From contig CM120649.1 in the NCBI GenBank assembly GCA_051362555.1, positions 16,258,567 to 16,322,566 of the forward strand: DNA of 64,000 nt, written 5' to 3'. Origin of the DNA: Lingula anatina (lineage: Eukaryota; Animalia; Brachiopoda). Shown here in pieces: positions 34,396 through 63,745 of the stretch; position 1 is the stretch's first letter; each line of letters opens with the position of its first letter. Below the pieces are notes generated by a model. The model was not told the DNA's origin and made no database searches. It saw nothing but the letters and a program-made list of their open reading frames with translations. A program made the position numbers and the translations under genes.

Positions 34396-37300
34396 ATGAG
34401 GATGGCCGGTGGTTGCATGAAGCTGTTTGTCGCTTTTATTTTGGTGTCTTGTGCAAAACGTGAGTACTTCCATATTAAATTATTAAAGAACGTATTATAT
34501 ATAACAATGGCTATTTAAAACTTTATTTTATTTCATTTACACGTTGCAACAGGGAATGTAACTACTAAGTCCAATTATTGACATGTGTGACGCACCTGTG
34601 TTTCAATTTTGTACCTTGTTATGCATTCCATAGGTCTAGAAACAAACTGCCAATAAATTTAGAAGTAAAAAGGCTAGCACAGTTCGGTAATGAAACTAAA
34701 AAACTTTTTTTGCTTGCAACAAAACAAATGTTGCTACTTCACCATATAGATAAGGAATAATGCACTATACGGACGCCTAACTAACTAAATAAATAAATAA
34801 ATAGATAAATTATTAAATAAATATTATTCAGGTTCAGTCCAGCAGGAGGACGCCGTAGTTACCCAAGCACCAATTAACGACATTAATTCTACCTACTTGT
34901 ACCTCAAGTTATATGGTAAGTGTTATACTCTTATACAGTATGCCTTTATTTATCACTATTTGATATGTTGGCACAAAATCAGTTTTCTGAATTCTTGGAT
35001 TGTCGCTGTTACGGATTGATAGGCTGTATGCACACTTGTCGTTTTCCCCCTCTCCCTACATCCCAAACCTCTGCGTGTAATGCGCAATCTCCGCAGCCAG
35101 GCCTTTTGCATATTTCAATTGTAGACAATAATTGCAATTACCACCAGAAGTGATTTTCAAATTGGCGTTTCTGCTTTGTTAGAATCTAATCTCCTCTTTA
35201 AATCAATTTTAATAAAACTATAATGTGATCATTATCTTCAGGAAAAGATCATGTTTATTCGATGCGTTCATATTTTCCAGTTGAAGAATACAATGAGACG
35301 ATGATGGAGGGTGTAATGGCGGCAGGGGGGCGCCCTGGTCAAGCCAGCAATACCCACAGTTGTGACTCCATCCGGGGAGTTCCGCAGAGTCTGCGCAGTA
35401 GAACTAACATGTATCCCAATGGACTGGGATACTTTTATCAAAAATATACAGAGGCGTACGGCATCCCGGTCTTAGGTAGGTTTCCGCCTCTATTTGTTTT
35501 CGGCTGGTACTTTGTTAATGTTTTTGTCTTTCTGCCTTTTTTCCCTGTCCATCTCCCTGTTTTATTTTTATTCTTTGTGTAACTCATTTCTTTTATTTCT
35601 GATTGCTTATTTTACTCCTTAACTTATTCTTTCTTTCTTTTTCTCTTTTTTCTTTTGTCTCACTTTTTTATAAGTTTTTTCTCCTCCCCTTCTTCAGCTG
35701 TTTCTATTTCATTCACGACTGACCAATATGAAGCAAATAAATGAAAATCGCGTCAGCAATTCTAAATTGTTTACATTTTCATGATATTGGAATTCTCGTA
35801 AGTTTCTCTGTTTGATCACCGTAGGGTCTCGTTACCTTAGCGACGACGCACTGAAGCGGGCGTGCTACACTGTGAGGTTCTTACTGGCTGACAGATATGA
35901 CGTCCGTAACTCGTACTACAAGCGTTACGGACGGTTTGCCATCATGGGACGAAGAGAGGTAAAGACTTATATATATTTTTTTTCATGTTTCATCTTTTTT
36001 TCTTTAAGAAAGCTAGTGTATAATAAATCCTTCCTTTTGATGCTAAATTACGTACGTTAATAAAAATTGCGTGTTGAGATTTAAACATTATCCAGAAGTT
36101 AACCTTGATGTTATTGACCTTCAGGTAACCACCAATATCCCAGAACACTCTTTCCTGGAACCCGGGTTCTGGAACCAAAGAGCACGTGGCCTAGGAGCTA
36201 CTGAGTCTGCGCCAGTTTCGACGGGAGCGGAAGAGAACGTGCTGTGCGAGACTGGCGACCGGTACCGTGAGGACATTGCTCTCCACGAGTTCTCTCACGG
36301 CGTCCATATTCTGGGAGCCAAGTACGCCATTAGAGGTTTCGAGAGGAGGTTGGCGGGTCTGTACAGCAGCGCACGTAGCCGAGGACTCTGGAGGGGTACA
36401 TACTCTCTGAGCACGAAGGAGGAATACTGGGTGAGTGGGTTTATCTAAGACTGGGTTCCCACACTTAGATCGATCCATCTGGATGGATCGACCAACTCCT
36501 TGGGGGTTCACGCTAAATTACTACCAGCTCAAGAGGCTTAAATGTCTGTCACGCCTACCGAATCAGCTAGGGTAAAGATAATTACCCCCTAACAGCTTTA
36601 CTATATAGGCGTGACAGACATTTAAGCCGGTTGAGTTGATTGCAATTTAGTGAGACTCCCCAGGGAGATAGATCGATCCAAAAATCTGTGGGAATGGTAT
36701 CTAAGCGCAGTTATTAAGAAAATCCAGCTTGGCTTTTTTTTCAATATGAAACAATTTAAAATTATTATTGAGTGAGTATAATAACTAGTTACTATACTCT
36801 TATCTTTAGAGATTCGTTTAAGAATATAGTTCTTTGTCACATCATAGCTCATATCGGTACACTTTTGTGTCCCTTTCACTGTTATTTATCACATAACACC
36901 ATATTTATGTGTTACGAACTATTTTAACAGGCGGAAGGGGTCCAAAGTTACTTTAACGTCAACGACTTCTCCGCGACCCCCAATGGCGTCCATGGTCCCA
37001 TTAACACGAGGTCTAAGCTCCAGAATTACGATCCGGCCCTTTATAATATCATCAAGGAGGTGTACCCATGTGGCAACACGTACATCAAACGGTGCGGGAA
37101 CAGACAGGAAATATATGGTGAGTTTTCATAGAAATAAACGCAGTGCATTTACAGCAACGAGAAACACCCAAACTGTTTTAAAACAACACACGTTCGGACT
37201 TAAGGCAATTAAACTGCTACACGAATTAGTGCTGATGTAAACCACTGGAAATATCTAAAGTAACTCTTTGGCACAAAACGTTACCAGTACGTGCACATTC

Positions 37301-38643
37301 CTTTTGTTATTACTTCTGCTGTTGTTGCTTCTATAGTAAATCTGGCAAGGGGACACCTCTGTCAAAAAGAAATTGTGAAGTAATCTGCAGGATAGTAGAA
37401 TTTTAGTCATGTATTCAGCATTTTTCTGTGATCAGATATCCATTTAAAATATTTGAGTAAATCACGGCAGTAGATCCTAATAGCTTATTATTTACAGGAG
37501 CACATTTGCTTTTTATATTGCAATCACATTTCACAGCCTTTTTCATTTTACAGCAAAAGAAAGAGCACAGCAACTTCGTTTAAATTGTGATTCAAACGGA
37601 GGCGGAGGGACTGGTGGTGGAACCGGTGGTGGAACTGGAGGGGGAACCGGTGGGGGGACCGGAGGTGGAACCGGTGGGGGAACCGGAGGTGGAACTGGAG
37701 GGGGAACCGGTGGGGGAACCGGAGGAGGAACTGGCGGAGGCAGTAAGTGTGGTTTAAAATACATGCATTTGTGTGTATTTTTTTCTTCAGGTTTGTTATG
37801 GCCAACGAAAAGGATATATTAATTTTACATGTAGATCTACATATACGGTACTTTTATGTCACTTTTTGTTTGTGCAGTTACATTTACCTGATTGTCTGGC
37901 AACGTTAAGTACAGTTATCAAATGCCGCCAAAGTCGATACACCTACAGTAGTATTTGACCATGTATCATTCCAGACTGTACGGACAATGACAACCGCTGT
38001 GCTGGCTGGGCGGGAAGAGGAGAGTGCGACAAGAACCCGAGGTACATGCTGGTCAACTGCCGGAAGAGCTGTCGCCAGTGTTCAGGTAAATATTCAGCTG
38101 GTAATAAAAGCATATTTTCTTATTATACTCTCTGCCATGTGCAGTAAATCCAGTGACCCACCCTCCATTAAATTCATACAGGTAAGGGTAAGCGTGATCA
38201 AATTTTAGGGCGGTTTATCTGCACATACTGGTAATTATGGGAACAGGGCCTTGTATTACAGGAGTTCTTTTTATATAATGGCGGTACTGGCACTATAGCT
38301 TATGCCGGATTGTAATTTTGGGTTGAACGTTAGGTGAAGACTACACGTTTTCGCTATCTGTCTACATACTTAATATAAGCACCTGTCACTGCTTCTAAAG
38401 TATATCAACACTTAATGGACCAATTTCCTGTGACATTTGAACAACTGTGTTCGATATATGCATGTATAAAAATTAACATTTTTTTCTTGAATTCCTGTTC
38501 TTCCAGGAGGAGGCGGCGGAGGAGGAGGCACCAACTGTGTGGACAGGAACATGTTCTGTGCATCCTGGTCCAGACGCGGGGAGTGTACACGCAACCCTAG
38601 GTACATGCTGACCAACTGTAGGAGAAGCTGCCGGCAATGCTGA
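34396..38643 (+). CDS. Secreted HEXXH zinc metallopeptidase (lethal-factor/zincin-like) + (GGGT)n linker + 2 ShKT domains, paralog A (~468 aa)
   Basis: Exons 34396-34459, 34832-34915, 35281-35475, 35825-35958, 36125-36430, 36931-37117, 37554-37742, 37975-38085, 38507-38643. Signal peptide; 'EDIALHEFSHGVH'...'STKEEYWAEGVQSYF'; ShKT 'CTDNDNRCAGWAGRGECDKNPRYMLVNCRKSCRQC'. Confidence 0.88.
36446..36704. mobile_element. Foldback (near whole-length palindromic) MITE, copy 1
   Basis: Arms pair along their length: ttcccaca/tgtgggaa, gatcgatc, ggggttcacgctaaatt/aatttagtgagactcccc, ggcttaaatgtctgtcacgccta/taggcgtgacagacatttaagcc. Second copy at ~56789-57023. Confidence 0.8.
37598..37742 (+). repeat. 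Coding 12-bp tandem repeat encoding the (GGGT)n linker
   Basis: ~11-12 units of GGN GGN GGN ACN inside exon 7 of gene A. Confidence 0.9.
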
Positions 38644-39286: not shown

Positions 39287-42200
39287 ATGGCATGGTTCTT
39301 GACATCGCTGGCATGCTTGCTGCTGAGTGTCGTGGGTGAGTGGATATCGATAATTCACAAAAAATTACTTCATTTCTTAGCCTTAAACACGCGAAACAGT
39401 TCAAAAGAGGGCAGAAGAGATCTGAAATATCCCTTTTGTTAGTTTTCAATATTCATTGAAGACTTTCGGTTACGGCTAAATTGTCGTAGACATAAAAAGC
39501 GCGCCGACTCTAGACTAAAGTTTCATTATGAAACGGAACCATATTCTGCTTCCAATATTTCATGAAATGTGTTAAGAAGTGACGGTGCAGTTCTTGTCGC
39601 AACTGTTTTGAAAATCGTTAGTGTAATCTTGTCGCCGATTTGTAAAGGTGTGAGGAAACACGAGTCCATTGAAGACACGGGTTTCATTGCATGTGGGCCG
39701 TGTCATGTGCCCATTCTGTTATTATAAATACTTACATTTTTATTTATTTTTAAACTATTACTCTAAACATCAACCCTCCTTCTTATCCTTGAGTAATAAC
39801 AAGAGCAAAGCAAATGTCTTTACAATATGTACTATAAATGAGTATAAATGAATATTGTTTTTAATTCCATTAATTATTGTTTTTGATTCCATTAATATTG
39901 TTTTTAATTCCATTAATTAAAGTTCTCTCGTCGTTATCCCCCTATAACGTGCAAGTGTCCTACGTGGGCAGCCCACGTTCCCTCATCAATAATTTTATTC
40001 AACCTCATTGGGTCTAAGGTAGGAATGATGCATTTAGTTTCACTGTGTGTAGATATATAGATACAAAGCATATCTTTGCGTGCCCAAATGAGATCAAGTA
40101 GGCAAAATAATAGCTAAACACGGTCATCAAACAAACCCTGGATCAAAGCAAAATCAAACTTTTCCTTCATCATTATTGACTCACATTATTTTCCAATGTT
40201 ATCACCTAGCTGTACCAGTATCTTCGTCTGTGTTCATGAGAATGCTGACGTCACGAGGCAGCGAAAGGCCTGGGTCCCCCACGAATTCCCACAGCTGTTG
40301 GAGCGTTCGATCTGTCCCCAATGACCTCCGCAGTGCAGCCATTATGGGCCCTAACGGCCTTAGCACGTACTATCAGAAGTACACTGAGGCGTACGGGATA
40401 CCAATATTAGGTAGGGAGTTGAACATTGTATGTTATTGTTCCTAATTGTTTTGATGGACGATACAATTTTATGATTAAAATTTTTGAAAAATAGACTCCT
40501 TGTTTTTATAGTTCACAACTTTTAGATATTTTGAGAATCAGATTTTCACAATGAATTTTTACCCTGCATTTGTGATTATATGATTTTTACCCTGCTTTGG
40601 CATTATAAACGATAAGTTTGTTGTATTAAAGGTACACTCCATCCGATTTACCTGCCGAGACTGATTTTCCCGGGAAAACGAGCAATTTTCTGGTACTTAC
40701 GAATCATTTACCAACCCTGCCTGCAGTTGGCTCCCACCTTTGATAAAGTTTATAAAGGTTGACTAACTTTACTTTTCCATTTTACAAAACAATGCGTATA
40801 CATGTATTTCCTTTTGATAAAACAGCTTCATGCTGCTCTAATCCTGGCAGGTTCTGTGCATGTGCCGGAAGATGCGGTCAAACGCGCATGTTATGTCGTA
40901 AGATTCTTGTTCGCCGACAGACAAGACGTCCGTCGCTCCTACTACAAACACTTCGGTCGTTTCGCCGTGTATGGCCAGAACGAAGTCACCCGAAGTATCC
41001 CTGAGCATGCGTACTTGGATCCATTTTGGGACACTCGAGCACGTGGCCTCGGCGCCACTTTGACGGCACCCGTTGCGACCTGCGCGGAAGAAAACGCTCT
41101 CTGTTACTCCACCGACACCTACGACCCCAACGAGGACATTGCCCTGCACGAGTACTCCCATGCCCTGCAGAGTCTCGGGGCATACTTTGCTGTGCCAGGG
41201 TTTGAGGCTCGCTTGAAGAGCGCGTACAGCAGTGCCATATCACGTGGTCTGTGGGCCAACACGTATGCCGGTACTGACGAGGTCGAGTACTGGGTAGGTA
41301 TCAGTATCCACTGAGTTAGACAATTATGTAGGCGATCATGTTGGCGTCTCCTATGCAAGTGACGCTTTCTAAATGTCTATTATCAAAATTAAGGTGAATC
41401 CTATTATGATGATGATGATGATGATACCACAGCGATTATTGTAACTATATTAAACATCCAACAACCAAGATTTTCTAGGACAGTACCATTTATATATAAT
41501 TGGCTTTTTCCCTTCTGCAAAGGCTGAGGCCGTACAAAGTTATTTCAACGCCAACACCCACCGAGACACTGTGAACGGCATCCACGGTCCTGTCAGCACA
41601 AGAGACAAGCTGAGGGCCTACGATCCCGCCATATATGCCCTGATCCAGGAAATCTTCCCCTGTAACAACAACTACATTACCAGATGCGGCAATAGCCAAA
41701 CTCTACGTTGTAGGTGTCTTGTTGCTGTACTGTTTTCATTTCTTTACTGTGAAGGTTTTATAAATTCGTTTGTCTAATTAGTTATCTGTTTGTCGTATGT
41801 TTGTTTGCATTGGTTCGTTTCTCTTTGTCTCTTTTTCTCTCTATATATGTAAGTTTATTCATCTAAGGTTTTTCAGATTTAAGCGTTTGTCCCTTTTTTT
41901 CAATTTTTGCGTATTTTTATTTACTTGTTTATTCATTTTTCTATATCTTTTCCCTTATTATGCCAACTGATCAAGGATTAACGCAACATCCCTTGACTGT
42001 TTTAAACCTTCACTTTCTATCCCGACATAACTGCATGGTTATTCACCATATTCCGCATCTAAATAATTTCTGGAACACAATTTATTTGATCGCATTTCAG
42101 CTCAGGAGCATGCTCAGCAGTTGAGAATGAATTGTGCCGGGTCAGGAGGGGCTGGAACTGGAACAGGAACCGGAACCGGAACCAACACCGGAACTGGGAC

Positions 42201-42616
42201 TGGAACAGGTACAACTTTAAGTTTTATTTTCAGTAGAAACAACAAAGACATGTATCTTGGTGTAACGTATTGTCTGCCAATGCGTTTGCTGCAAGAAAGT
42301 TGGTTAGAGTTTGGAAAATAAAACCATAAGAAGCGCTCTATTTTAATTTTTAATACCTATATGTAAGTACCCCACCCCCCGGTATATACATAGGTAATTC
42401 TCTGAAGAATAAAATTACAATGAATAAACCGTGCTATTTGTGTTGATTAGGGACCGGTACAGGGGGCAGCTGTGTGGACAAGAGTGAGAATTGCCAGTAC
42501 TGGTCTCAGACCGGAGAGTGTTCCAAAAACCAAGCCTACATGTCTCAGAACTGCAAGAAGAGTTGTAATCTCTGCTCAGCTGGAGGCCAGGGTAATTAGA
42601 AGCACGCACGCGCGCG

Positions 42617-42657
<41 letters not shown>

Positions 42658-43741
42658 GACAATTGCACTACATTGCTTGGCATCGTTTTACAGCTACAGT
42701 AGTCGGCATCCATCTTTAAAGGACAAATTGGTAGACCCGTACCCCTTTCAAAAATAAAATAATTCCCCCTGCAGTACCAATAATCGACGTTTTTTAACTA
42801 TATTTTCTCGATATTTCCATTTCCATTTCTATTTTTTTTTCTATTTCTATTTTTGTTCATAGATTTATTATTCACTAAGTAGACTGAATGCATTCGTTTT
42901 TATAGGGCTCAATCTGTGCGTGTTTAGAGTCAATGTGTTTGTGTTTAAGGAGTCAATATATGTTTGTGTTTATAGACTCGATGTGTTTGTGTTTGGCGAC
43001 TGCATGTGTTTGTGAGTAGGGAATCAATGCATTTGTGATTAGGGACTCGATATGTTTGTGTTTATTAGGAGTCGATATGTTTGTGTTTAGAGGGTTTGTG
43101 TTTTTGTGTTTAGGGACTCGATGTGTTGCGTTTAGGGACTGAGTATGCTTGTGTTTAGAGAATCATTGTGTTTAGAGAGTCATTGTGTTTAGGGACTCAA
43201 TCTGGCAGCTGCTCAGACCAGAGCCAACACTGCAAGTACTGGTCAGAGACAGGGCAGTGCACTCAGAACGCCGCCTATATGCTGAAGAACTGCAAGAAAA
43301 GCTGCAACCAATGTTCAGGTACAGGTAGGATCATTTGTGTCAGCAATATTATCATTATTTGTGTAACCAACCCGGGATCATCGCCCAGAATTTCGGAGAT
43401 AAATGTATAAACGTACCTTTATTATCAGTAGATGTCTCTGCTTTTCTCACTCTGTAATTTTTATTAATCTTAAAAGAGACAAGGCCACAGCCACCATATT
43501 CAAAACTGTATACTTCTGTTTAGACCTTCCTAATTCCTTTTCCCTTTAGTGCATGCTAAGTTCATGCATTTATTTGTTAGGTTAATTTAATACATGTGTT
43601 TATTCGTCAGGTACGGTAGGACACACAGGAAGTTGCGCAGACCAAAGCACAAACTGTCAGTACTGGTCAGATACTGGAGAGTGCACCAGGAACTACACCT
43701 ACATGTCCCAGAACTGCAAGAAAAGCTGCCGCCTCTGTTGA
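39287..43741 (+). CDS. Secreted HEXXH zinc metallopeptidase + (GT)n linker + 3 ShKT domains, paralog B (~463 aa)
   Basis: Exons 39287-39335, 40210-40410, 40851-41293, 41523-41709, 42101-42208, 42451-42591, 43193-43324, 43611-43741. Signal peptide; 'EDIALHEYSHALQ'...'DEVEYWAEAVQSYF'; three ShKT modules 'C.D....C.YWS.TG.C..N..YM..NCKKSC..C'. Confidence 0.88.
42895..43200 (+). repeat. Degenerate ~20-23-bp intronic minisatellite (tgtgtttagggactcgatgtgtt-like)
   Basis: About 13 diverged units ending at, and including, the real splice acceptor 'gtgtttag|ggactcaa' at 43192/43193. Confidence 0.8.
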
Positions 43742-45005: not shown

Positions 45006-47954
45006 TCAACAGACGTCGCCATTCACTGTGACACAGTCCCATTCAGGGTGAGACGACTTGACCAGATAGTTGAACAAACCGTCCGACATGGTATGGCGTC
45101 TCCCAATGAACTCTCTAGCAGCCGGTACGGCATTGCAGTCCCCGCCCGCCATGTCCAGCAAATCTACCAAGTCATTACGTATTTCGAACAGCTTGTCTGT
45201 TGTCGGGACTGTATAGGTAGGGTGGCTGGCCCCAGACCGCGCAAAGCTCAGCGGATAGATGAGGTAGCACTTCTGGTGCGGGAAAAGTCCAGATATCATG
45301 CGCAGAGCGTCGGTTGTCGTGAAGCTGCTGTCCAGAGGACTGACGCGGCTTAATATGGCATCGAGGGTGGAGTTGACCTTCATCAGTTTGACGATCCTGT
45401 CGGCAATCCCAATCAGTTTCGGTAGCTGTTCCTTGGTAAAAGGACCCAAGATGTCTTCCAGAGCGCCGTTGACCTTGTTATGGAAATCGGTGTTCAGGTA
45501 ATTTTTCAAGCCCCGCAGGGCAGAGGATATGCCTGAGACTCTTTGTTTGGAGTAAGGGCCAGACAAACCGTGGTTGTCTTCCAAGCATTTTTGGGTCTGA
45601 GCAAACTGAAGGGAGAGGGCAAAGTTTGAAAGTGGTTGGAGTCTTCCTCCTGGTTGTGGCTTAAAGGACGCTGCTAGCCTACTAAGGTCTGGTAGGCGTT
45701 TAAGTCCGGAGCGAATTTTGTTTCGGATTAGATCGGCGATGCTTCTCTTGCTTCGCGTACACATTTTGTTACGGAGGTCACTTAACTGTACCTTCAAGCC
45801 GGGAAAGGCGTTGCCAAGATCGACCGTGACCTTAAAGACGTTACGGAAGGCAGTGGTAACGCGTTTCTGCAGTTCCGGCCAAGCCGATTGGATCTTTGCG
45901 CAGTCGGCCTCAATGCGACGCAAACTGTGATCAACCATCTTTTTAGCTTCTTCCAAAGTCGATTTGGCGGACTTTAACTTGTTTTCGTACTCGCGCTGTT
46001 TTCTCTTGTTGCTCCCAATGCCGAGGAGGTCCAGGATATCGCCCCCGGAGAAAGGCACGGGTACGGGCAGCGTCGACAGAAGATTTTCCACCTCTCTCTC
46101 CAAGAGCTGGTTCACTATTCCTTCCAGACCCGTGTCCACCTTGTTCTTTATGTCGTCTAGCTCAGTTTTAAGAACTTCAAGATCTTTTATGTCAATTGTC
46201 TGGTTTACACCTAATTAAAGATAACAAAATAAAAGAGTGAAATAGGATAACGTTAAAGTCGTTGCTTAGATAAATATAACAGTGTAAATGATACTTAAAG
46301 CTTTGTAAGATTAGTACGTGTTTATCAAATAAATTGCTCATTTTGCGCCTATGAAAGACAAATTGTCCTAATATAATCCATTTAACGTAAAGCACATTTA
46401 CATAAATCAAAAATAATAAGTGGGAATGAGGATAATTTCTTTTGTTTGTGAATCTGTAAAAGGGACATCTGCACAGAATTCCCAAGACACGCCCTCCTGG
46501 TGCCACGTCATAAAACACCCCCACCTGCCTCCACCCATACCAAACGCCACCTACCGGAGAAAGAACCATAGGAAGACCTCAGCCTTGCAATGGTGAGGAG
46601 TTGGTATACTTCAAATGTCAGCTCCTTGAAAGCATCGGCGACTGCGGCCACATCAGACTGGAGGCTGACCAGCCTGTTCCGCATGTCCTTGCAATTGTTG
46701 TATACAGAGCTCCTCTTCGCCGCGAGGGAGCTGGAAATAATACGTTATTATTATTATTATTATTATTATATTCTGATACAATGGCCGAGATATAACAATA
46801 CAATACAAGGTGATTATATATTTACAGTTATTTTGTAACGATAACAAATTGATAATGATGAATGCCTTGGTTTTAAACATTTGAGCTACGCTGTATTATG
46901 ACATCAGGATATACTTATAATCAAATAATACCCCTGTCATCTTAAAAAGATATTTTTGGTATCCCACGTTTTGTTTTAAAAAAAGTCCCCTAGCAATAGA
47001 GTTAACATGTTTTTAATTTAATTTAATTGTTTAATACAACGACGACATATTAATTGCTAAGCTTAAATTAGTTTAGTTTAAATCTGCGTGTACCATAATG
47101 TTAGTCACAAGTGCAATTAAAATACTCACTTAACCTCGCGCTGTAGACGCTGGACTTGCGGTTTCAGGTCACATATCTGAAGACAAGAATAAAGCGATGC
47201 TTTTCTTTACTTCATTTTGTGTTTCATGTAGAAATAAAAAAAAGAAATACAAATTCTTTTATTTAAAAAGCAAATAAAAATATATAATAAAAAGTAGCTA
47301 TCCATTACTACAGCGTGCACATTCCTACTAATCCATGAGTTGAATCACTTTGATAATTGATGGAGAGAGAGAGAGAGAGAGAGAGAGTGAGAGACAGAGA
47401 GAGAGAGAGAGGTCACTTACGTCTGGATAATCAGGATAGTCCGGACATTTTGATAAAAATTTGTCTACGATGATGTCAATGATACCACCGCTTCCTAGAA
47501 CTGAATATCATAATGCACATTGAATATTATAATGCTTAAAACACCCTAAAATTTGTATAAATGTCCATTTTCACCGTTACGAGTAAAACGCTTCCGTCTC
47601 AATCTCCATTATGAGGGTGATGTAAAAATTAGAAACTTAGAACCCAAAAGGAAGTTTATAGGTACATTAGGTACATTGTACATGCAGTAATTCTGTGAAC
47701 GGCTTTAAAATCTATGTACCTTGTTCATTCACAAAAGCAGATTATTCTCCAATGTTTTGTTTGCAACTTATATGCTGCTGTAGGAGGGGTACATGTAGTT
47801 GGAAATTTCAAGTAAATCAATTTAAACTGCACAATTATCTAGCAATATTCTCGGGTCTTTAAGATAACAATTACAACTCACATCCCGATACGGGGCCGGC
47901 AGTGGAGAGTATTAAGAGTAGCGCCAGTCCAAACACATTCGCCACAGCAACCAT
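45006..47954 (-). CDS. Secreted, predominantly alpha-helical protein of unknown function (~526 aa)
   Basis: Exons 47954-47882 (signal peptide MVAVANVFGLALLLILSTAGPVSG), 47500-47421, 47176-47130, 46730-46555, 46210-45006; phases consistent (1581 nt). Heptad-like helices; RSKR site at ~45744-45755. Confidence 0.82.
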
Positions 47955-51215: not shown

Positions 51216-51432
51216 CCATTTTGATTGAACCATATGGCTTAACCAGCAGTACAGGACTAATGATATCCCCAAAAACATAAGTCAGAATTAATTTGTGACT
51301 TGTTTGTAATGAAAACTTATCCTCTTATTTTTAATATAGCTTGCTACATTAAGATTTATATAACTAGATGGCACTGAGGACTGTCTTTACCACGGAACAG
51401 GAAAAAATATCCTTTCTGTGCCTATATAAGAA

Positions 51433-54400
51433 TCACTGGCGGTGTCCGCTTTGTTCGTCCTGCTTCAGAAAGTTTATATTTACAAAATGCACCTCCATGC
51501 ACATATAAACAGTGCGCTTTGTTAGTCGCGATTTTGCTCGATTATAGAAGTTCCTTTTGGTGTAGAATATCCTAAACCCGAGCTCGTACAGTTTGTTGAT
51601 GATATCGACATCTGCTTGTTTCTTAGGGATGTCATGAAACTCTAAAGCAAACTGTTTGACTTGGGATAACACACCCTCGCGGTACATTGCCTGTAAACTT
51701 GGCCATTCGCTCAATTCAACGTCCATTTTCAGGTAGTCCAGTGTCACCTTAAATAAATATATAGCTAACAAGTATCATCTAAAATAAAGAAAGAAAGAAA
51801 TGGACAAGATAGATGTACACATACAGAAGGAGAATGCAACAGATTGTTTACATACACAACAAGGCGAGTGAATCGTCCCTCAAACCACAAAACCCCTTTA
51901 GCATCGGTATTAACACCCCCTTCCTCTAATAATAGAAAGTCTGAAACAATTTTACCAGTATGTGACGTACGTTCTCATGTCCAAGAAGTCGCTTTATGGA
52001 TCCAAGCGTATAAAGTTGCCACATGTTTTCATTGGTTCCGTTGCTTCCAGATATACCCAGATTGTGGAAATATATGTTTCGGGAACGCTTAAAGTCCTTT
52101 TTTCCTATACTGGAAACAAGTTAAGAGAGAAAACTGTGATACTTTTTCGCGTGTTATGCTCAGTGAGGCTTGTTAAAGAATTAATCATCTATCCTATACT
52201 GAAAAAAAATTAAATGGGGATATTCATGTGTCAATGAGACAATGATATGAAGGGATGGTTAAGTATCGTCCGAAAATACGAATGAAAAAGTTATGAGTCA
52301 AAAAGCAAATATTCACTGCTCGCATGTCTGACTTGTTATTTGTTATCGTTTTTTATTGGGGGAGGGGGTGTTACATTCCTTAGGGGGTGTTACATTCCTC
52401 AGAAGCGAAGAAATAGAATATGCCTATTTTACGCCCTCCGATAAATTCGTCGCTGCTTATGAACAAAAGGTACCAATATTTTGCTTATTTCGAATAGTGC
52501 TTACCTTGGATCGAAACAGTGCACTGTACAATTTTTGGCCTTGCCCATGTAGTCGTCAAAAGACCAGTTGTCAGCGATGCTGGATACGAAATAACAAATA
52601 TTTACATCTGCGTTAGTATCATTTTTGCACCGTATTTAACTTACTTTAAGTCATTTTCACATCAAACGCTATATCCAACGGGTGCCTTACCTTCCGAACA
52701 TAAAATACTGATGAGGGTGGAGTAACAAGTATACTGGTATGGGGGATTTGACTGTGTTGTTCGAGTGAAAAAAAAAGCTGTAACACCAATATCATATAGT
52801 AGTTAAGTGGCTGCCTTACACGCTAATACCCCCTTTATACCCCCTTTACACTGGACGGCGTCCTTTCTGCGACCATGAAATTTGGCATCGCTGTGGTCTT
52901 AATAAAGAGACACGAACATTGATTTTGTATCAGAATGAATGCTCAATGATCGGCTAGTTGTCGGCAAGTAAAGCAATATAATTTTTTACCTCTCAAATGG
53001 GGCCGTACTGCTGGACGCAGAAAAAACGCCGTCCAGTGTAAAGGGGGCTTTACCAACATACATGCACGACGGACTTCCGAAGTTATTATTATTATTTTTA
53101 TTTTTATCATATCTATAGCTTACTATACATCGACAGGACTTCATAATGGGCGGACATAAATTACTGACATGGGTGTAGCAGAAATAAAAATCCAGAAGTA
53201 ACACAAGTCCTACCCATATCTACTTACCCAAAGGAGTATACTAAACATTTTCCCCGTTTCATATTGTATGGCGGGTCCAGGCACACCTCCCAGCCGCCGT
53301 CTTCTCTTTCTCTGGTGCCTGCTCTTATCCGGTTTCGGCAGTCGAACTGTAACTTATGAAGATATCTGGAAATTGAAAAAGGAGCCAAACTATTGCATTT
53401 ATTGAGGGATCACTTGGGAGAAATTAGTTCAGCCAGACCAAAGAGCAGATAGACAACTTTTAAATAGGCAAAGGATTTTCCTCAAATAATGTTAATAATT
53501 TATCAATTGTACATTACACAGAAACTTATGTAAAGCTTGGATTTTAAGAAATAAATATTTTATTATATTTCATTCAATTTTACGATATTATTTTAAAGAC
53601 GCTTAAATTGTAAGTGAATGCACGTATGTAAGCAGTTAAATACAAACAACGTGCGATAAACCTTTTAAACAGCATTGTTTTGTTGGAAATGCTCTTCTCA
53701 AAGATAGGAAAGATGTTCTTGGAGATCCAGACCCTGGATATTTCCTTGGCATCTTCTTTTGCTGGTCTCAGTTTAAGATAGTGAGTGCTTCCCGCTTCAT
53801 ACGCGTAGAACAAAGATTTAACATCCATCCTTTTTAATACTTTAAAGATATTCACCTTTTGGTTGCTTGAGGTTGGAATAATTCCGATTCTTCCTTATAA
53901 ATACTCATAGCCCAAATTTCTCACCAGAAGTGGACTTGTTGGCCCATTTTGCCTCTAAAAACACTTGTTCCTCTAGATCGAGTTTTCCAAAAAATTTATT
54001 TTTTACCCTACCCTATTTTGAGTTATATATTTTTTTTCAAACCTATCCTTTAACACTAGTCCAACGCAAGCTGCCTGCATTTAAGCTTTATTTTGTTTCA
54101 CGGGAATATTTCATTGTGTGTACCTGAAATAGTCCAGCTCAATCTTATCTGATATTGCACCAGCCCCCGACAGTCTCGGAACGGCTTCTCTTGAATACTC
54201 AATGTCGTCTGCTAGATTGTAGAACGTTTTCAGTGGAGTAGGTTTTATGGTTGATGCTTTTGTAACTTGGAGTTTCTCCAACGCCTGGAAAAAGATGAAA
54301 ACTAAGTCATCCGTTCCAATCGTATTTTGAATAAACGTTTTTATGTAACTCCAGGCTGATCATGGTTTTACTGTGCCACTGAAAGTTACATTTGTTACTA

Positions 54401-55134
54401 CTGTTCCTAGAATCAAACTTAAACACTTTCAGGAGATAAATGCCTCGTGCTCGTATGTGTATTCATATAACACTGAACAACACGAGTCTCCTGCATATCA
54501 AAGGGATAACAACTACTGTATTCATATAAGTTCCACAATAAATACATTGTAAACAGCACCTAGAAATAAAAAAAAACCTCCACAAAAAATGCGGTTATTG
54601 CAATTGTTCCAAAATAGGTGCTTGCCATTGGACCGGGAGGACCTTCATAGATGGTTTCCCTCCGTAATAATCTCTTAAGAGATGATTACAAGTAAAAAAA
54701 CGTCTAACTTTGAATGTCGGAACGGATATATTAACCATGGGCAGGTTTGAATGCGTCTTAGTTTTCCCCAGGGAAATCCGTTTCATGGCACTTTCCCTGC
54801 CAAAATGAAGAGTTGTTATCCCTTAAAACGCGACACAAAATTATAAATGGGACACGAAGGGCCCGGGAATGCCTTATGGACACATTAAATGGGGTGGATT
54901 TAGGCCGTCTTCTGAGTCTTCCGGAAGACGGTCAGATTTTCAAGTTTACATTGACGGGTATCTAATTTTTCTGTCGGAAGACGGTCAAAAGTGGAGGATG
55001 GATCAATAAAGATAATTCGGAAGCCTGTCAGAAAATATCTCTGGATCCGCCCCTGCATTTTAACTCGTTCATCTTTGTACTTTCATACAAGAACACAAAT
55101 ATATTGTTAACGGCGGTTGTGGCAGGGTCCTCCT

Positions 55135-55171
<37 letters not shown>

Positions 55172-55497
55172 AACGAAGGAGAATTCCTTCTCAGAACGGT
55201 GCTTACCAATTGCAGATCTGACCTACTGCTATTTAAGGTTCTCAATGCAGATCTAAGGATGGACACCTCATTTGCTAAATAATAAAAGTTAGACAATTAA
55301 TCTTGAATGTTTTTGTAATTGATTCTATTTCGCTTATGTATCGATCTTACTTAAGACAAAATATATGATTGCCAACATGTTTTCATTAGAAATCTGTGGA
55401 AAAAAAACACACCTTCACGCATCCAGAGGACGGAAAGTCCCACCAGCAAAACGACTAGGAAAAACGACAAGAGTTTCCACATTCTCCGCCCGGTCAT
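51433..55497 (-). CDS. METTL24-like (Methyltransf_22/FkbM-related) type II membrane methyltransferase, copy 1 (~326 aa)
   Basis: Exons 55497-55413 (TM 'WKLLSFFLVVLLVGLSVLWM'), 55274-55207, 54284-54124, 53365-53228, 52579-52505, 52109-51971, 51747-51433. Motifs 'DGGWEVC', 'CLVYSFGI..NWSFD', 'C.VH.FDPS', 'LDYLKMDVE.SEW', 'VKQFALEFH'. Confidence 0.88.
52838..53049. mobile_element. Harbinger-type MITE in an intron of METTL24-like copy 1
   Basis: TIR CCCCCTTTACACTGGACGGCG / CGCCGTCCAGTGTAAAGGGGG with TTA on both flanks; not present in the paralogous intron 61678-62011. Confidence 0.75.
54889..55055. mobile_element. Short TIR element inserted in copy 1 only
   Basis: Ends GGGGTGGATTTAGG ... CTGGATCCGCCCCTG (same family as 28043-28275); the paralogous site at ~63285 'gacacatttaacccattc' is empty. 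Confidence 0.72.
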
Positions 55498-56788
55498 AGT
55501 TTTTAATTCTACGAAAGAAAAATGTAAAAATGTTTACAGATAAAACAATTATAACTACTATCTGTAGCATGGCAATATTCATTTATGGATCCCTTGGTTC
55601 AAAAAGGTAACCCCTTTAAGGTACTCACTAGATTTTCTTTATTCCCCCTCCTCCCCCCATTCAAAACAACAACTACAAAACACGGTATAAAAAAAACGAA
55701 GAAGCACAAAACACAACAAAACAAAGACAATTTACACCCCCATTTTAGTAAAAATACCTATCATTGACTACCGTTCAGAATATTTTAACTTGCCCCCCCC
55801 CCCCTCCCCCTTTAGTTAAATCCTGGAGCCACGATTGATATGGCAGTCATATATGGAACCCTATTTGTCTGGAATCTGTTTTCAAATTGATGCTATTCAT
55901 CTGAAATCAAGATAACATTTGTTGCCTAAACCTCAGCCCACTAATCTCTCTCTCCCCCTCCTCCTCGGTTTACCTTCTTGTGTTTGTCTGTAAAAAGCAC
56001 TACAAGAGCACTGATATCTAGCAGAGAAAAATTGCATTTACTAAAAGACATAACAGAAAAAAACATTTTGAAATTCGTAATCAGTATATTTCCCCTCGTG
56101 AGCATCTGCTTGTCTTGAAATATTAAATAAACATTGCGAAGACATACACACAAATATACAAAGCATCGACGATGAAAATATATATGCCCCCCTACCCTCA
56201 TCGAATCAAAAGATGGAGGTCAAGTAGATCTTTCATACACTGCATATACCAAACCATCTGATCTTTGAACCGCTAAGATTAATACAATTCCAAAAAAATT
56301 CAACCATTACAATAAATTGAGGCGTCCACGACTATTTCCGCATCACCGTATGTCTGAATTGAAATTAACTTAACCTTACTTACCCTTACAACTGGTTATA
56401 AAGAATCTTCCAAATACTTCGCAACCAACCCCTTGGATTTATTATACCTATACTCGCAATGGTGATCCGCAACTTAACGTTATAACTTAAAGTAATTTAT
56501 AACATGCAGTATCGAAGATGCAGCCTCCTTATAATAATATTTTCACGTAGCTAATCATACCAAAAGTTCTGAATTAATGAATGTTTGATATTATATAATG
56601 AATATTTGATATCATGGTGTCTTCACCGTATACCACTGGATGTAAACTCTATTCATAAAACATTTGAGGTTACCAGTAGATTGAAGAAGAATCCAACTTT
56701 GTGCACGGATTTTATATAACCCTTATATTATACATGAACTGACAGGAGTGAAGACAGAAGCAAACTTTTGGCCCGAAATATTCAGCTC

Positions 56789-57023
56789 TAAGAGTGCATT
56801 CCCTGATCGAGATTTAGATCGATCCAGAGATTTAGATTTAGATCGACCTTACACCCTGGGGCTTCACGCTAAATTGCAGTCAGCCGAGCGCGCACCATAG
56901 TTAATTACCCCCTTACAGCTTTTAGTAGGCGGGACAGACGCTTAAGCCGGCTAAGCTGACAGTAATCTAGTGAGACTCCCCACAGGGATAGATCGATCTA
57001 AAATCTTTGGGAATGGGGTCTAA
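56789..57023. mobile_element. Foldback MITE, copy 2 (homologous to 36446-36704)
   Basis: Shares 'ggggcttcacgctaaatt', 'taggcgggacagac..ttaagccgg', 'tagtgagactcccc', 'atagatcgatc.aaaatct.tgggaatgg'; TAA flanks. Confidence 0.75.
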
Positions 57024-59180: not shown

Positions 59181-60402
59181 AAAATCAAACGGAGGTTTAT
59201 TTCAAGTCCACAGGAGTAATAAGTCTACGTTTTGGTGACATCTTTTACTACGAGGCGGTTTCGGAATATACACGTGCTGGTTTTCAGAGCATTCATGTGC
59301 TACATGTAATTACAAGTTCAAAGGGGGAATAGATTTGATTTTTACCGATATATCTGATAAAGAGGAAGAATGAACAGCTTAAAAACAAAAGGTAAATTAC
59401 ATAACACTCGTTAAAAAGTTATAGATTTTCAAATAATTTGTATGCACGCGTTGCTTAAATGTAAACTAATTCCCGTTTTCAAACCACACCATATGATATG
59501 ACTTTGTGAAATAAAATTATAAAGAATAATTGTTAAACGTGAAAAGTTTGTTAATTTTTTAAGAGTGTGAAAGATTTTTAATTTGTCAACTGGTAGGTAT
59601 ATATAACGCAAGTAAAGTCACTATTCTCTTAATGCCAAGAAGGTCACATGATCACCGTCTTCGGCTTTCAGCATTTAAGAGACCTCGACTGATTTAACCA
59701 AGATGTAGTCGTGAAATTCTAGACTACATCGAGGTTAAATCCGAGTTTTCCGAGAGACGCTACGCAGAAATGTCGAGTGAAGCGAGATATTTTTGGGTAG
59801 CGGCTCGAGGTTGCCCTCGATCTTCACTGGAGCTTGACTAAATGGACAGGCTTCAGTGATCAGCATATCGCCACGGTCATATAACATCCCTAGGTATGTA
59901 TATATTTGTAGCGTATTTGCACTGTATTTGAACCGTATTTGCAGCGTATTTGTACATATTTGTAGCGTATTCGTACTGAATTTGCACAAGGCAGAGGTGT
60001 TGATTTCTCTATCCCAGTGCGCAGTGCATGCACGTTGGGTTATAACGTAGCCAGACATGTCAAAGCTAGGCGGGCAAGTGAGTTACTAGTGACATTTCTT
60101 CTTTTCTTCTTTTCGTCTGAAAATCCGGGCCATCAATTGAAGCACATTCTTATGTGGAGTTTCGCCTCGGACCTTTTTTTCCTCTTATTGGGCTCTAGTC
60201 GTCAGGGATTGTGCATTTTTTTAGTTTGATATTGCATAACTGTCAACATATGTTGTGCCTGGTCGAGTATGAATTGTAGCATGGAAAAATAATAAAAGTA
60301 ACCATTTTAGTTCATGATATAGCAACAAGCAATAATATTCAAATACGCGGAATGTATTCAGCGGATAGCAACTATTCGCGACCTGTGTGCAGTGTTAATG
60401 AA

Positions 60403-60726
60403 TCAATGGCGGTGTCCGCTTTTTCCGACCTGCTTCAGAAAGTTGATGTTAACAAAATGCACCTCCATGCACATATAAACAGTGCGCTTTGTTAGTCTCG
60501 AGTTTGATCGATTATAGAAGTTCCTTTTGGTGTAGAATATCCTAAACCCGAGCTCGTACAGTCTGTTGATAATATCGACATCTGCCTTTTTTTTAGGGAT
60601 GCCATGAAACTCTAAAGCAAACTGTTTGACTTGGGATAACACACCCTCGCGATACATTGCCTGTAAACTTAGCCATTCGCTCCATTCAACGTCTATTTTC
60701 AGGTAGTCCAGTGTCACCTTAGAAAA

Positions 60727-60757
<31 letters not shown>

Positions 60758-63745
60758 ATAGGGCACGAGGCCTGAATGGAATTTAGATATACCGGGTATT
60801 TGCAGACCAGTAGATTGTTAACGTGCACACTAACACGTGCTCGGCTCCTCCCCCCAAATTTCGCGCCTGCTCTCTGCCGTTTGTCCAAACCCTGGATGCC
60901 TCAGTCTGATGTGCTAGGTGAGATTAAAACAGAATAAACCGTAAAACCGTAAAATATGACATATATTATATCCCTGAACCTTATATGACGTTTTACATGT
61001 AGACCTCGGTATGACCGTCAAATTTAAAATGGAGAGCAAAAACCTTATGGCGCTGAAATACGTAAGAAAGCAGTTTATTATGACTTTAAAAGCTAACAGT
61101 TTTATGCTGGACTTCCAAAACCTCAAGATAATGACAATGAATATTCAGACTACATTATAAATTTTAAAAGAATATTTTTGGTAAATCGTTTCCGTTCTTT
61201 GTGGTAAACAATATGCGGGGCATTTATAACAGTAAGCGACTTACGTTCTCGTGTCCTAGAAGTCGCATTATGGATCCTAGAGTGTATAGATTCCACTTTT
61301 TATAATTGGTTTCGTTGCGTCCAGATATGCCCAGGTTGTGGAAGTATATGTTTGGGGTACGGTTAAAGTCCTTGTATCCCATACTTGAAACAAGTTGAAG
61401 GAGAAAATTATGATTTACGTCCTGAAATCAAAGAGCGCCCACAGCGCTCGAAAGCAGAACATGTGAAACATTTTTTAATCATCTATATAGTAATAGCATA
61501 TCAGCCGAAGTCTTATTTTCACGTTTTTCTCCCCAAAACGATGTTGACAACTGACAAGCTATAGCTAGAGGGGGGGGGGGGGGGGGGGGGGGGTTTACTT
61601 GCCTTGGATCAAAACTGTGCACTGTACAATTCCAGGTTTTGTCCATGAAGTCGTCAAAGGACCATTCGTAACTGATGCTGGAAACAAACAAAATGTTTAT
61701 ATATATTCTCATCTGTGTTGATGTCATTTATGTAACTACATTATACTTGAAGGCTTCCATAAGGCGATTCTCACTCGAGTGGTACATTTTACAAAGCCAT
61801 TCTAATTTAAGAGATTGGGAATTTAACAGCCCGACTAGATGACGCGCAAAATACACCTCAGCGAATCCCCCCCTCCCCCACCCCCGCGGTCAACTAAAAT
61901 ACATGTACATAAAAAGGTCTTTTAAAAAGAATCGATCCTCCCCCATCAAAGTATTTTCAACTTCTGGTTATTCTCAGATATAATGGGAGGCATATCTTAT
62001 CACCTTCTTACCCAAAGGAGTAGACTAAACATTTCCCCGGCTTCATATTGTATGGTCGGTCAAGGCACACCTCCCAACCGCCATCTTTCAATTCGTTGAA
62101 ACCAGCTCTGACCCGGCGGCGGCAGTCAAATTGTAGTTTCTGAAGATATCTTGATATTGAAAAGCATCATTTTACCATTTTTAAAGATAAAAATGCAAGT
62201 TGAAAGAATGATCATTTTAAAGAGTAATAAAAAGATGGAGAAATCAATACAAAAATATTTTTTCCAAAAACTATTACATATTTATTAACTGTACTTTATA
62301 TAGAGCGTTGAAACACATGGACAGTGAGGTTATACAAAATTAATAGTGTTATTATTATCAGTCGTGTTACGATAGAAGTAAATAGTTGCCCAGAGTTGCC
62401 TTTTATTTAAGATTTTTATGCGTGGGAATATTTCGTCGGGTGTACCTGAAATAGTCGAGTTCAATCTCATCTGCTATTGCATCATCCCTTGACAGTGTCG
62501 GAACTGCTTCTCTTGAGAAGTCAATGTCGTCTGCTAGATTGTAGAAAGATCGCAGCGTAGTAGGTTTTATCGTTGTTGCATTTTTAAATTGGGATCTCTC
62601 TCCTGCCTTGAAAAATAAATTCTGATATTGTAAGTACAGACGGAGCATGGTTTTATTGCTCCTTTGAAAGTTACATCCGTAACCGCTGTTCTTAGAATCA
62701 ATCTTAAACACTTGCAAGAGATAAATGCTTCTTGCGCGCATGTTTATTCATATACATTGAACTCTATTAAATAAGATCAAGAGATACCGCAGTGAAATAC
62801 TGTAGATTATTATAGATTTTTCTACGGTGCCCATATCATACTCGAGGGCTTTTTATTTCTCATATCAAAAGGATAACAACTCTTCACGTGAAATTAAGAA
62901 TTTCACAATAAATACATTGTAAACAACGCACAGAAATATAAAAAATTCCATTTTACCAAAAAAAAAATTTTTTAATTATTCCGATATCTCTGTTTGCCAT
63001 TGGGTCATATTGACCTTCATAGATGGTTACCCTCCGTAATAATATCTTATGGCATTATTAAAAAAAAACAAAAAAAAACAACAACAACAACAACAACAAT
63101 AGACTAGCTAACTTTGAATGTCCGAACGCATTTATTAAACATTGGCAAGTATGGGAACATCTTCAAATACCCGGGAAAATCCGTTTCTTGGCACTTTCCC
63201 TGACAAAACGAAGAGTTGTTTTCCCTTATACGCAGCATAAAGTTTGAAATTGGGACACGAAGAGCCCAAGAGTGACATATTGACACATTTAACCCATTCA
63301 CCTGTGCACTTACATTGTACATACTTGTAAGTAGACAAAACAAATGTAATATTTCGGTAACGGCGGTAAAAACAGGTCTTCATGAAAGAGAGAGAGAGAG
63401 AGAGAGAGAGAATTAACGAAAGAGAATTTCTGCAGGAAAAGATGCCTACCAATTTCAAATCTAACCGACTGCTAATGAGGGTGCCATTTTTCAATGTCGA
63501 TCTAAGGATGCCCACGTCATTTGCTAAATTATAAAAGTTAGACAATTATTCTTGCATGTTTTTGTAATTGATTCTATGTCGCGTATGTATTAATCTTACT
63601 TAAAACAAAATATATGATTGCCAAAATGTTTTCATTAGAAATCTGTTTAAAAAAACGCACCTTCACGCATCCAGAGGACGGAAAGTCCCACCAGCAAAAC
63701 GACTAGGAAAAACGCCAAGAGTTTCCACATTCTCCGTCCGGACAT
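60403..63745 (-). CDS. METTL24-like type II membrane methyltransferase, copy 2 (~328 aa)
   Basis: Exons 63745-63661, 63523-63450, 62606-62446, 62149-62012, 61677-61603 (GC donor), 61383-61245, 60717-60403. Same motifs as copy 1; exon sizes identical except exon 2 (+6 nt). Confidence 0.87.

What the first reader, a model, noticed from the sequence alone, without database searches (positions are those of the whole stretch)
45006..47954. Orphan secreted helical protein with cytolysin-like layout, convergent on the peptidase-ShKT pair
Seen: signal peptide; predicted mature N-terminus FLGSGGIIDIIVDKFLSK (amphipathic helix); long heptad-like helices flanking a single Pro/Gly-rich hydrophobic segment 'LLSTLPVPVPFSGGDILDLLGIG' (~46014-46085); a furin-type RSKR site; and a Cys-containing C-terminal region. 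Known: ClyA/Hbl/Nhe-type alpha pore-forming toxins have helical bundles with a hydrophobic tongue. Inference: a possible novel pore-forming or lytic effector. Its tail-to-tail adjacency (~1.3 kb) to lethal-factor-like proteases suggests a two-component 'pore + enzyme' module; this is speculative.
Basis: inference. Interest (0 to 1): 0.7.

Follow-up and report, generated by a model that had tools for sequence, protein, structure and literature searches.

The report
Brachiopod secreted pore-former-like protein family
An expressed, conserved lamp-shell (brachiopod) gene encodes a protein predicted to be secreted and helical, from a small unnamed family that likely damages membranes as a defence, but it matched no known toxin fold and showed no sign of working with the neighbouring protease genes.

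Summary
The gene is real: five exons, 526 codons, - strand, in Lingula anatina (LOC106152896; RefSeq lacks its first 82 residues). It is transcribed in 3 of 4 RNA runs laid and shows 13 silent to 3 replacement differences. It is not an orphan: three Lingula paralogs and about 20 unnamed, apparently spliced relatives share a signal peptide, eight cysteines, long helices and a central proline-kinked hydrophobic hairpin. Two AlphaFold models of relatives (pTM 0.50, 0.57) give the helix order of ClyA-type toxins, but three Foldseek, four VIA and two profile-profile comparisons gave no significant ClyA/Hbl match; only a sub-threshold language-model lead points there. The RSKR site lies in a roughly 60-residue insert, between two extra cysteines, that the four full-length relatives examined lack. 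This copy has the weakest hairpin of the family. The 'pore + enzyme' idea is not supported: the adjacent peptidase had almost no reads in all four runs, both peptidases carry their own signal peptides, and 'lethal-factor-like' was not confirmed. Best reading: a membrane-inserting defence protein that works like an alpha pore former (about 0.4), not a shown ClyA member.

The parts
47882..47954 (-). Exon 1: start codon and predicted signal peptide (24 codons)
   Evidence: KD19 2.24; joint to exon 2 in 3 reads of X7 (table 5c); paralogs P0003 and P0015 begin with a like hydrophobic stretch
47421..47500 (-). Exon 2: predicted mature N-terminal helix and Cys43
   Evidence: AG/GT borders; tblastn with P0003 and P0015; family HMM E 1e-4
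47130..47176 (-). Exon 3: Cys53 and start of the first long helix
   Evidence: AG/GT borders; tblastn with P0003; family HMM E 0.0018; joints not shown
46555..46730 (-). Exon 4: rest of the first long helix, Cys80; RefSeq model starts inside it
   Evidence: joint to exon 5
45006..46210 (-). Exon 5: 401 whole codons incl. stop; second helix, hairpin, third and fourth long helices, insert, C-terminal domain
   Evidence: 98% to XP_013382090.1; RNA depth up to about 33 in X7
46014..46082 (-). Proline-kinked hydrophobic segment (tongue/hairpin), weakest of the family
   Evidence: KD19 1.12, longest uncharged run 15; aligns with the hairpin of relatives; low pLDDT in both models
45585..45761 (-). 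Paralog-specific insert from Cys276 to Cys334, inferred disulfide-closed loop
   Evidence: about 60 residues absent from P0003, P0015, P0004, P0007; both Cys unique to this gene
45744..45755 (-). RSKR furin-type motif, two residues after Cys276
   Evidence: kept in the RefSeq allele; absent from 4 of 4 full-length relatives
45009..45374 (-). C-terminal small helical domain with four conserved Cys and the family's best conserved motif (C-Y-x-x-Y-P ... R ... H-x-x-Y); border approximate
   Evidence: invariant columns; helices 339-444 of the P0003 model; not folded or searched alone
39287..43741 (+). Neighbour: peptidase 2, spliced, signal peptide, HExxH, Gly/Thr linker, three ShK-type domains; convergent
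   Evidence: sequence read directly; ShK PF01549 E 5.7e-9 for the last domain; almost no RNA depth in 4 of 4 runs
34396..38643 (+). Neighbour: peptidase 1, same build with two ShK-type domains
   Evidence: sequence read directly; low RNA depth with a GT..AG joint in X7

Best explanation
This expressed Lingula gene encodes a member of a small unnamed protein family that is predicted to be a secreted, disulfide-stapled helical rod and likely damages target membranes the way alpha pore-forming toxins do, probably as an innate defence. Shown: gene structure, transcription, purifying selection on part of exon 5, the family, conserved cysteines and the central hydrophobic segment. Predicted: an up-down bundle of four long helices, a short N-terminal helix and a small C-terminal domain, with the hairpin between the second and third long helices. 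Inferred: the C-terminal domain binds the target, the hairpin anchors in the bilayer, the N-terminal helix swings out and copies assemble into a pore. In this copy the hairpin is short and charged, so it would more likely be an anchoring or partner subunit working with its paralogs; the Cys276-Cys334 insert would be a loop that a proprotein convertase can nick while the chain stays tied. The neighbouring peptidases are not part of it.
For: Family-wide hairpin with KD19 1.63-1.86 in 4 of 4 full-length relatives, near ClyA 1.93 and an HBL-family protein 2.01, conserved in 8 further fragments, in proteins that have a hydrophobic N-terminus (3 of 4; P0007 lacks its start) and no C-terminal anchor. 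N-terminal amphipathic helix in 3 of 3 relatives that have it (moment 0.45-0.51; ClyA 0.48). Both models give short N-helix, two long helices, disordered tongue, two long helices, the order described for the ClyA family (PMC7979752, passages). Atlas features of P0004: the best three of 30 hits carry Bacillus_HBL on 60%, 14% and 33% of members, rank 6 is HlyE, 9 of the ten best share a family or clan (a lead only). Multi-copy and divergent in Lingula (30-58% between paralogs). 13 silent to 3 replacement differences, pN/pS 0.07. Animals do carry secreted HlyE-like defence proteins (PMC11731912, abstract and section 21).
Against: No Foldseek match at E <= 0.001 for either model; the ClyA pore chain 6mrt ranks 27th with E 0.14 and TM 0.20. 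Profile-profile probabilities 1.4% (ClyA) and 0.1% (one HBL-family protein); the family HMM scores ClyA and the HBL protein no better than their reversed sequences. Atlas scores 0.79-0.81 and 146-152 shared features are within what shuffled proteins reach, and the window's own product gave no usable hit. The weak HBL, MakE and XaxB HMM hits (E 0.05-0.6) cover one coiled-coil helix and appear out of register. This copy has the weakest hairpin (1.12) and N-helix moment (0.29). Models are of relatives, with middling confidence. No activity data.
Confidence: 0.42

Rival explanations
1. A secreted, non-lytic lipid- or membrane-binding protein (carrier, surface coat or opsonin): the hairpin would bind lipid or tether the rod to a membrane without forming a pore.
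For: Same anatomy explains it; fold hits are generic bundles incl. BAR domains and trypanosome surface receptors at Z 8-11; this copy's segment is too short and charged to cross a bilayer; Perilipin E 0.2 (not significant).
Against: No lipid-carrier family or fold stands out; a hairpin long enough for two passes in P0004 and P0007 (KD11 > 1 over about 35-42 residues) is not a feature of exchangeable apolipoproteins (own knowledge).
Confidence: 0.3
2. A structural or adhesive extracellular coiled-coil protein (shell, mucus, setae, egg coat).
For: Long heptad helices; only coiled-coil hits in Pfam, NCBIfam and PDB sequence searches; Lingula has lineage-specific helical matrix proteins (PMC4595640, passages).
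Against: None of the four named Lingula family members is in the supplement holding the Lingula shell-matrix list of PMC13425148 (a control accession was found 18 times); the models fold back into a compact bundle rather than an extended fibre; no low-complexity repeats.
Confidence: 0.12
3. A gamete-interaction protein (acrosomal lysin or fusogen type) that uses the amphipathic helix and hairpin on egg membranes.
For: Secreted-type, basic (net +11 to +38 in 4 of 5 members), helical, multi-copy; expression differs strongly between runs.
Against: pN/pS 0.07 on the stretch tested, whereas such proteins usually evolve fast (own knowledge); no class I fusogen anatomy (no C-terminal anchor); no viral fold match.
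Confidence: 0.07
4. One reading: this protein forms a pore that delivers the neighbouring HExxH-ShK peptidases into cells.
For: Convergent genes 1264 bp apart; peptidase 1 is detected at low depth in X7, the run with most reads on this gene; HExxH followed by E-Y-W-A-E resembles the lethal-factor motif (recalled, no call).
Against: Peptidase 2, the adjacent gene, has depth 0-0.11 over its largest exon in 4 of 4 runs, and 0 in X7 and X4 where this gene has about 25-33 and 2-3.5; peptidase 1 has 0 over bin 35048-35521 in X4. Both peptidases have their own signal peptide and ShK tails, as extracellular proteases do. No lethal-factor match from single exons. ClyA-type pores are lytic, and convergent animal genes do not form operons (own knowledge).
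Confidence: 0.04

Closest known systems
ClyA family alpha pore-forming toxins (ClyA/HlyE PF06109; Hbl/Nhe/Ahl/Smh/Mak, Bacillus_HBL PF05791; XaxAB/YaxAB; Cry6Aa)
   Same: All-helical rod; N-terminal amphipathic helix; one central hydrophobic tongue between long helices; about 300-residue core; several paralogs of unequal hydrophobicity, as in bi- and tripartite members (PMC7979752, passages).
   Different: No significant sequence, profile or fold match; eukaryotic signal peptide; four conserved inferred disulfides; an extra 120-residue C-terminal domain; the helix before the tongue is about 36-41 residues against about 70 for its neighbours; no beta strands in either model.
Drosophila hemolysin E-like proteins (PMC11731912)
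   Same: Animal, multi-copy, intron-bearing, partly signal-peptide-bearing proteins of similar size proposed as humoral defence factors.
   Different: Those carry a recognisable HlyE domain and were traced to bacteria; this family has no Pfam domain and no prokaryotic relative was found in the searches made.
Cry6Aa (PMC5004264, passages)
   Same: Helical core whose C-terminal piece stays disulfide-tied after proteolytic removal of an internal loop, a precedent for the Cys276-Cys334 insert reading.
   Different: No match detected; the insert here lies inside the core between two long helices and exists in one paralog only.
Anthrax-type A-B toxins (lethal factor with protective antigen)
   Same: Only a recalled likeness of the neighbours' HExxH...E motif and a furin-type site.
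   Different: Translocase there is a beta-barrel (own knowledge); no co-expression with the adjacent peptidase; ShK tails and signal peptides on the enzymes.

Membership tests
ClyA family alpha-PFT | Five-helix tail bundle superposable on ClyA/Hbl/Nhe/Cry6 structures | tested here: inconclusive
   Helix order compatible; no Foldseek E <= 0.001, 6mrt E 0.14 TM 0.20; VIA lists led by generic bundles, best Z 14.4, rmsd 2.8, 164 aligned to gp41-5; models pTM 0.50 and 0.57, of relatives
ClyA family alpha-PFT | Hydrophobic tongue or helix-turn-helix between the long helices (family level) | tested here: met
   KD19 1.63-1.86 in 4 of 4 full-length relatives against ClyA 1.93 and HBL-family 2.01; position between helices in both models
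ClyA family alpha-PFT | Hydrophobic tongue in the window's own protein | tested here: inconclusive
   KD19 1.12, uncharged run 15, 5 acidic residues around the turn: enough for a one-leaflet anchor at most
ClyA family alpha-PFT | Amphipathic helix able to span the membrane and line the pore | tested here: inconclusive
   18-mer moment 0.45-0.51 in 3 relatives, ClyA 0.48, window copy 0.29; helix only about 15 residues in the models
ClyA family alpha-PFT | Match to HlyE (PF06109) or Bacillus_HBL (PF05791) above the curated cut-off | tested here: not met
   0 of 7 proteins scanned pass; best PF05791 12 bits against 29.1; hhalign 1.4% and 0.1%. Known members can lack mutual sequence similarity, so this lowers 'is a member', not 'works like'
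ClyA family alpha-PFT | Oligomeric pore and lytic activity | not testable with these tools
   needs a bench assay or a structure
A-B toxin (pore plus enzyme) | Pore and enzyme expressed together | tested here: not met
   adjacent peptidase 2 near zero in 4 of 4 runs incl. the 3 that express this gene; peptidase 1 low in X7, 0 over bin 35048-35521 in X4 (4 of 9 listed runs, tissues unknown, 90% likeness cut)
A-B toxin (pore plus enzyme) | Enzyme is a lethal-factor-type (ATLF) protease with a translocase-binding domain | tested here: inconclusive
   single exons only; no Pfam, NCBIfam or PDB hit; whole spliced enzymes not scanned
A-B toxin (pore plus enzyme) | Conserved linkage of the two genes in relatives | not testable with these tools
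   no genome held for the window; no DNA around the relatives was obtained
Furin-activated protoxin | Conserved R-X-[KR]-R site | tested here: not met
   0 of 4 full-length relatives; 451 of 2000 shuffles have one; kept in the two alleles of this gene compared
Lingula shell matrix proteins | Detected in the shell proteome | tested here: not met
   0 hits for the four named members in the one supplementary file of PMC13425148, control accession found; supplements of PMC4595640 not read

The most novel reading that the evidence does not exclude
A new animal family of disulfide-stapled alpha pore formers with ClyA-like logic but its own fold and C-terminal targeting domain, shared by a brachiopod and other marine eukaryotes, acting as a multi-component pore built from paralogs, in which this gene is the anchoring subunit gated by a convertase-cut, disulfide-closed loop.
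Probability: 0.15. Interest if true: 0.75.

Novelty: new variant of a known kind. Interest (0 to 1): 0.42.

Why it matters
Animal pore-forming effectors described so far are mostly of other folds (MACPF, aerolysin, actinoporin, gasdermin; own knowledge), and the animal HlyE-like case read here is a recognisable bacterial import. If this family makes pores, it is an animal helical pore former that domain and fold searches miss, and a first candidate lytic effector of this type for brachiopod immunity; the paralogs of graded hydrophobicity make a direct test of multi-component assembly possible. If it does not, it remains an unannotated secreted family with a corrected gene model.

Tried and rejected
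No ClyA-family chain (judged by entry titles) is among the 50 rows shown in any of four VIA runs (lowest Z shown 7.5, 8.2, 8.3, 5.5); this is an absence from lists of generic bundles, not proof of a different fold. Viral Foldseek: 0 at E <= 0.001; class I fusogen reading dropped (no C-terminal anchor). PDB sequence searches with exon 5 and two alignments: nothing under E 0.02, coiled coils only. PADLOC: one weak coiled-coil hit of 5 proteins. Five of the 11 hits were dropped as unrelated: P0006, P0009, P0011, P0012 (read by me as bacterial sensor kinases) and P0010 (fungal repeat protein). No related loci in viral contigs or JGI metagenome contigs; family profile found 0 of 401 genomes of one bacterial phylum (no positive control). 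PF05791 search gave only 1 of 400 genomes, so the HBL side of the profile test is a single sequence. No RNA holder was listed by index; raw-read runs of the same species label were laid instead. A second read-laying was not obtained, so introns 2 and 3 lack read joints and five listed runs were not examined. No whole genome is held, so synteny is untested. The read peaks at 36470-36943 and 41210-41683 were rejected as expression: they lie on a palindromic repeat and a GAT run with loose ends. Earlier-finding look-ups returned nothing. Paper searches for the accessions found 0 papers; searches showed no paper on this family in their listings.

Full report
Source and gene. The window is animal DNA with introns. 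Exon 5 found 1 protein among 7997 candidates scored, XP_013382090.1 / LOC106152896 of the brachiopod Lingula anatina, 98% identical; 7 of 400 residues differ, so the window is another allele or assembly. The model is 47954-47882, 47500-47421, 47176-47130, 46730-46555, 46210-45006 on the - strand, all introns GT-AG, 1581 nt, 526 aa, no internal stop. The RefSeq protein starts inside exon 4. Exons 2-4 are hit in order by paralogs, and a family HMM hit only the four frames of exons 2-5 among 2131 six-frame segments.

Expression and selection. Four of nine listed RNA runs were laid, 6-25% of each read. Exon 5 bins have depth about 25-33 in X7, 2-3.5 in X4, 0.5-0.9 in X5 and 0 in X1; in X4 and X5 all first mates there lie on +, which fits a - strand RNA. 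Intron 4 is a CT..AC joint in 22 reads; intron 1 is bridged by 3 reads; joints for introns 2 and 3 are not among the rows shown. Of the 16 X7 differences shown inside the coding sequence (45022-45423; the table shows 40 of 339 rows), 13 are silent and 3 replace a residue, pN/pS 0.07, binomial p 2e-6. This is a partial list, but it marks a working gene.

Family. A search of 1.84 billion representatives gave 11 hits; 6 are family (P0002-P0005, P0007, P0008) and 5 were dropped as unrelated coiled-coil or repeat matches. Profile searches added P0015 and 15 fragments (17 of 661 candidates). Named members are all Lingula: LOC106164095, LOC106166697, LOC106152897. P0004 (517 aa), P0007 (389 aa) and 18 fragments have no name. 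Seven of 8 hairpin fragments stop matching P0004 at residue 288, three others at 375-377 and five at 439-447; shared ends in independent records suggest exon borders, hence spliced eukaryotic genes (inference; no DNA seen). No prokaryotic relative turned up (limited).

Anatomy. Eight Cys align across P0003, P0015 and P0004; the window protein has these (43, 53, 80, 229, 440, 484, 518, 526) plus 276 and 334 (the first three placed through, as P0002 lacks them). P0007 keeps the partners of 80, 229, 440 and 526 and has lost those of 484 and 518 together, which suggests the pairs 80-229, 440-526, 484-518 (inference). The two extra Cys bound an insert of about 60 residues missing from the four full-length relatives examined; RSKR sits at its start. 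No relative has an R-X-[KR]-R (0 of 4) and 451 of 2000 shuffles do, so the site is not a family feature; its place in an inferred disulfide loop is the only point in its favour. The central segment is a Pro-kinked hairpin: KD19 1.86, 1.63, 1.86, 1.68 in P0003, P0015, P0004, P0007, but 1.12 in the window copy; ClyA scores 1.93 and one HBL-family protein 2.01. The N-terminal helix moment is 0.45-0.51 in three relatives, 0.48 in ClyA and 0.29 here.

Structure. The window's own full-length product was not folded. P0003 (6 rows; pLDDT 69, pTM 0.50) gives helices 21-36, 47-117, 125-160, a low-confidence 150-184 tongue, 185-252, 278-334 and a small helical domain 339-444. P0004 residues 66-377 (20 rows; pLDDT 70, pTM 0.57) gives the same order. 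That is the order of the ClyA family, whose shared features are a five-helix tail, a short hydrophobic anchor, a membrane-spanning helix and a hydrophilic lining (PMC7979752, passages). But Foldseek found nothing at E <= 0.001 in the PDB or the viral library; the ClyA pore chain is rank 27, E 0.14, TM 0.20. VIA's best rows are generic bundles: gp41-5 Z 14.4, rmsd 2.8, 164 aligned; a designed filament Z 12.9; She2p, lyases, BAR domains at Z 9-11, within what the tool calls a common arrangement. Profile comparisons with four ClyA rows and one HBL-family protein gave 1.4% and 0.1%; the family HMM did not separate them from their reversals. Weak hits to Bacillus_HBL (E 0.18), MakE (0.046) and XaxB (0.57) cover the helix after the hairpin and, for MakE, profile positions 123-173 of 352, which by analogy with the HBL protein's hydrophobic peak at 179 of 365 lie before the tongue: out of register (inference). 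The Atlas gave no usable hit for P0002; for P0004 its listed rows were HBL- and HlyE-type clusters at 0.79-0.81, 9 of the ten best in one family or clan, below the 0.9 bar and with low recognition. The C-terminal domain was barely tested.

The neighbours. Peptidase 1 (34396-38643) and 2 (39287-43741) each show a hydrophobic N-terminus, HExxH, an E-Y-W-A-E motif split by an intron, a Gly/Thr linker and ShK-type domains (PF01549 E 5.7e-9 for the one domain scanned). Single catalytic exons matched nothing in Pfam, NCBIfam or the PDB, so 'lethal-factor-like' rests on a recalled motif. Peptidase 2 ends 1264 bp from this gene yet has depth 0-0.11 over its largest exon in 4 of 4 runs, and 0 in X7 and X4; peptidase 1 has about 5 in X7 and 0 in X4 over bin 35048-35521. 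Caveats: tissues unknown, few runs, and a diverged allele could fall under the 90% cut. Synteny could not be tested.

Mechanism. Shown: gene, RNA, selection, family, hairpin, Cys pattern. Predicted: secretion and the helical rod. Inferred: target binding by the C-terminal domain, anchoring by the hairpin, release of the N-terminal helix, assembly into a pore, use in defence; for this copy, an anchoring or partner role beside more hydrophobic paralogs and an optional convertase nick in the Cys276-Cys334 loop. Precedents read: secreted HlyE-like defence proteins in Drosophila (PMC11731912, abstract and section 21) and a disulfide-tied, protease-trimmed Cry6Aa (PMC5004264, passages). I give this 0.42, a non-lytic lipid or membrane binder 0.30, a matrix protein 0.12, a gamete protein 0.07 and pore-plus-peptidase 0.04. 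None of the four named members appears in the supplementary file of PMC13425148 that holds the Lingula shell-matrix list (supplement searches only; control found); the supplements of PMC4595640 (passages of main text only), with its own shell and expression tables, were not read and may bear on the matrix rival.

Novelty. The accessions occur in 0 papers of the library, and the listings of searches showed nothing on this family; subscription papers are not covered. It works, if at all, like a ClyA-type alpha pore former; it is not filed as a member, since the profile test was not met and the fold test was inconclusive. Verdict: real gene, uncharacterised family, plausible but unproven lytic effector; the two-component module is not supported. 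Interest 0.42.

Noticed in passing
window 51430-55740 and 60400-64000, - strand: Tandem duplicate of a spliced Methyltransf_22-type gene, pieces 70-93% alike.
   Followed up: partly
window 36450-36700, copy at 56899-57023: Palindromic repeat in an intron of peptidase 1; many RNA reads with strand-switch joints and loose ends lie on it in all four runs; looks like a MITE carried in many transcripts.
   Followed up: partly
window 34396-38643 and 39287-43741, + strand: Tandem secreted HExxH peptidases with Gly/Thr linkers and two or three ShK-type domains; the catalytic exons have no Pfam, NCBIfam or PDB hit, so the family is unassigned here.
   Followed up: partly
window 47954-46685: RefSeq XP_013382090.1 starts inside exon 4 and lacks the first 82 residues with the signal peptide; the public model is truncated.
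   Followed up: yes
window 47490-47495: Three reads of X7 across intron 1 carry 5 of the 11 letters expected, i.e. an allele two codons shorter at the mature N-terminus (table 5c).
   Followed up: no
P0015 (LOC106152897): Paralog with the next locus number, on a contig of the same length (182,606) as LOC106152896, yet no second family gene lies in this 64-kb window.
   Followed up: partly
P0004 residues 21-68: Extra acidic stretch (12 D/E, 6 K/R) between signal peptide and N-terminal helix, with a KR at 49-50; could be a masking propeptide.
   Followed up: no
window 10486-11409, 13548-14543, 18568-19017, 22903-23682: Ordinary neighbours: sulfotransferase, family 2 glycosyltransferase, cupin-like and aldo/keto reductase exons.
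   Followed up: no
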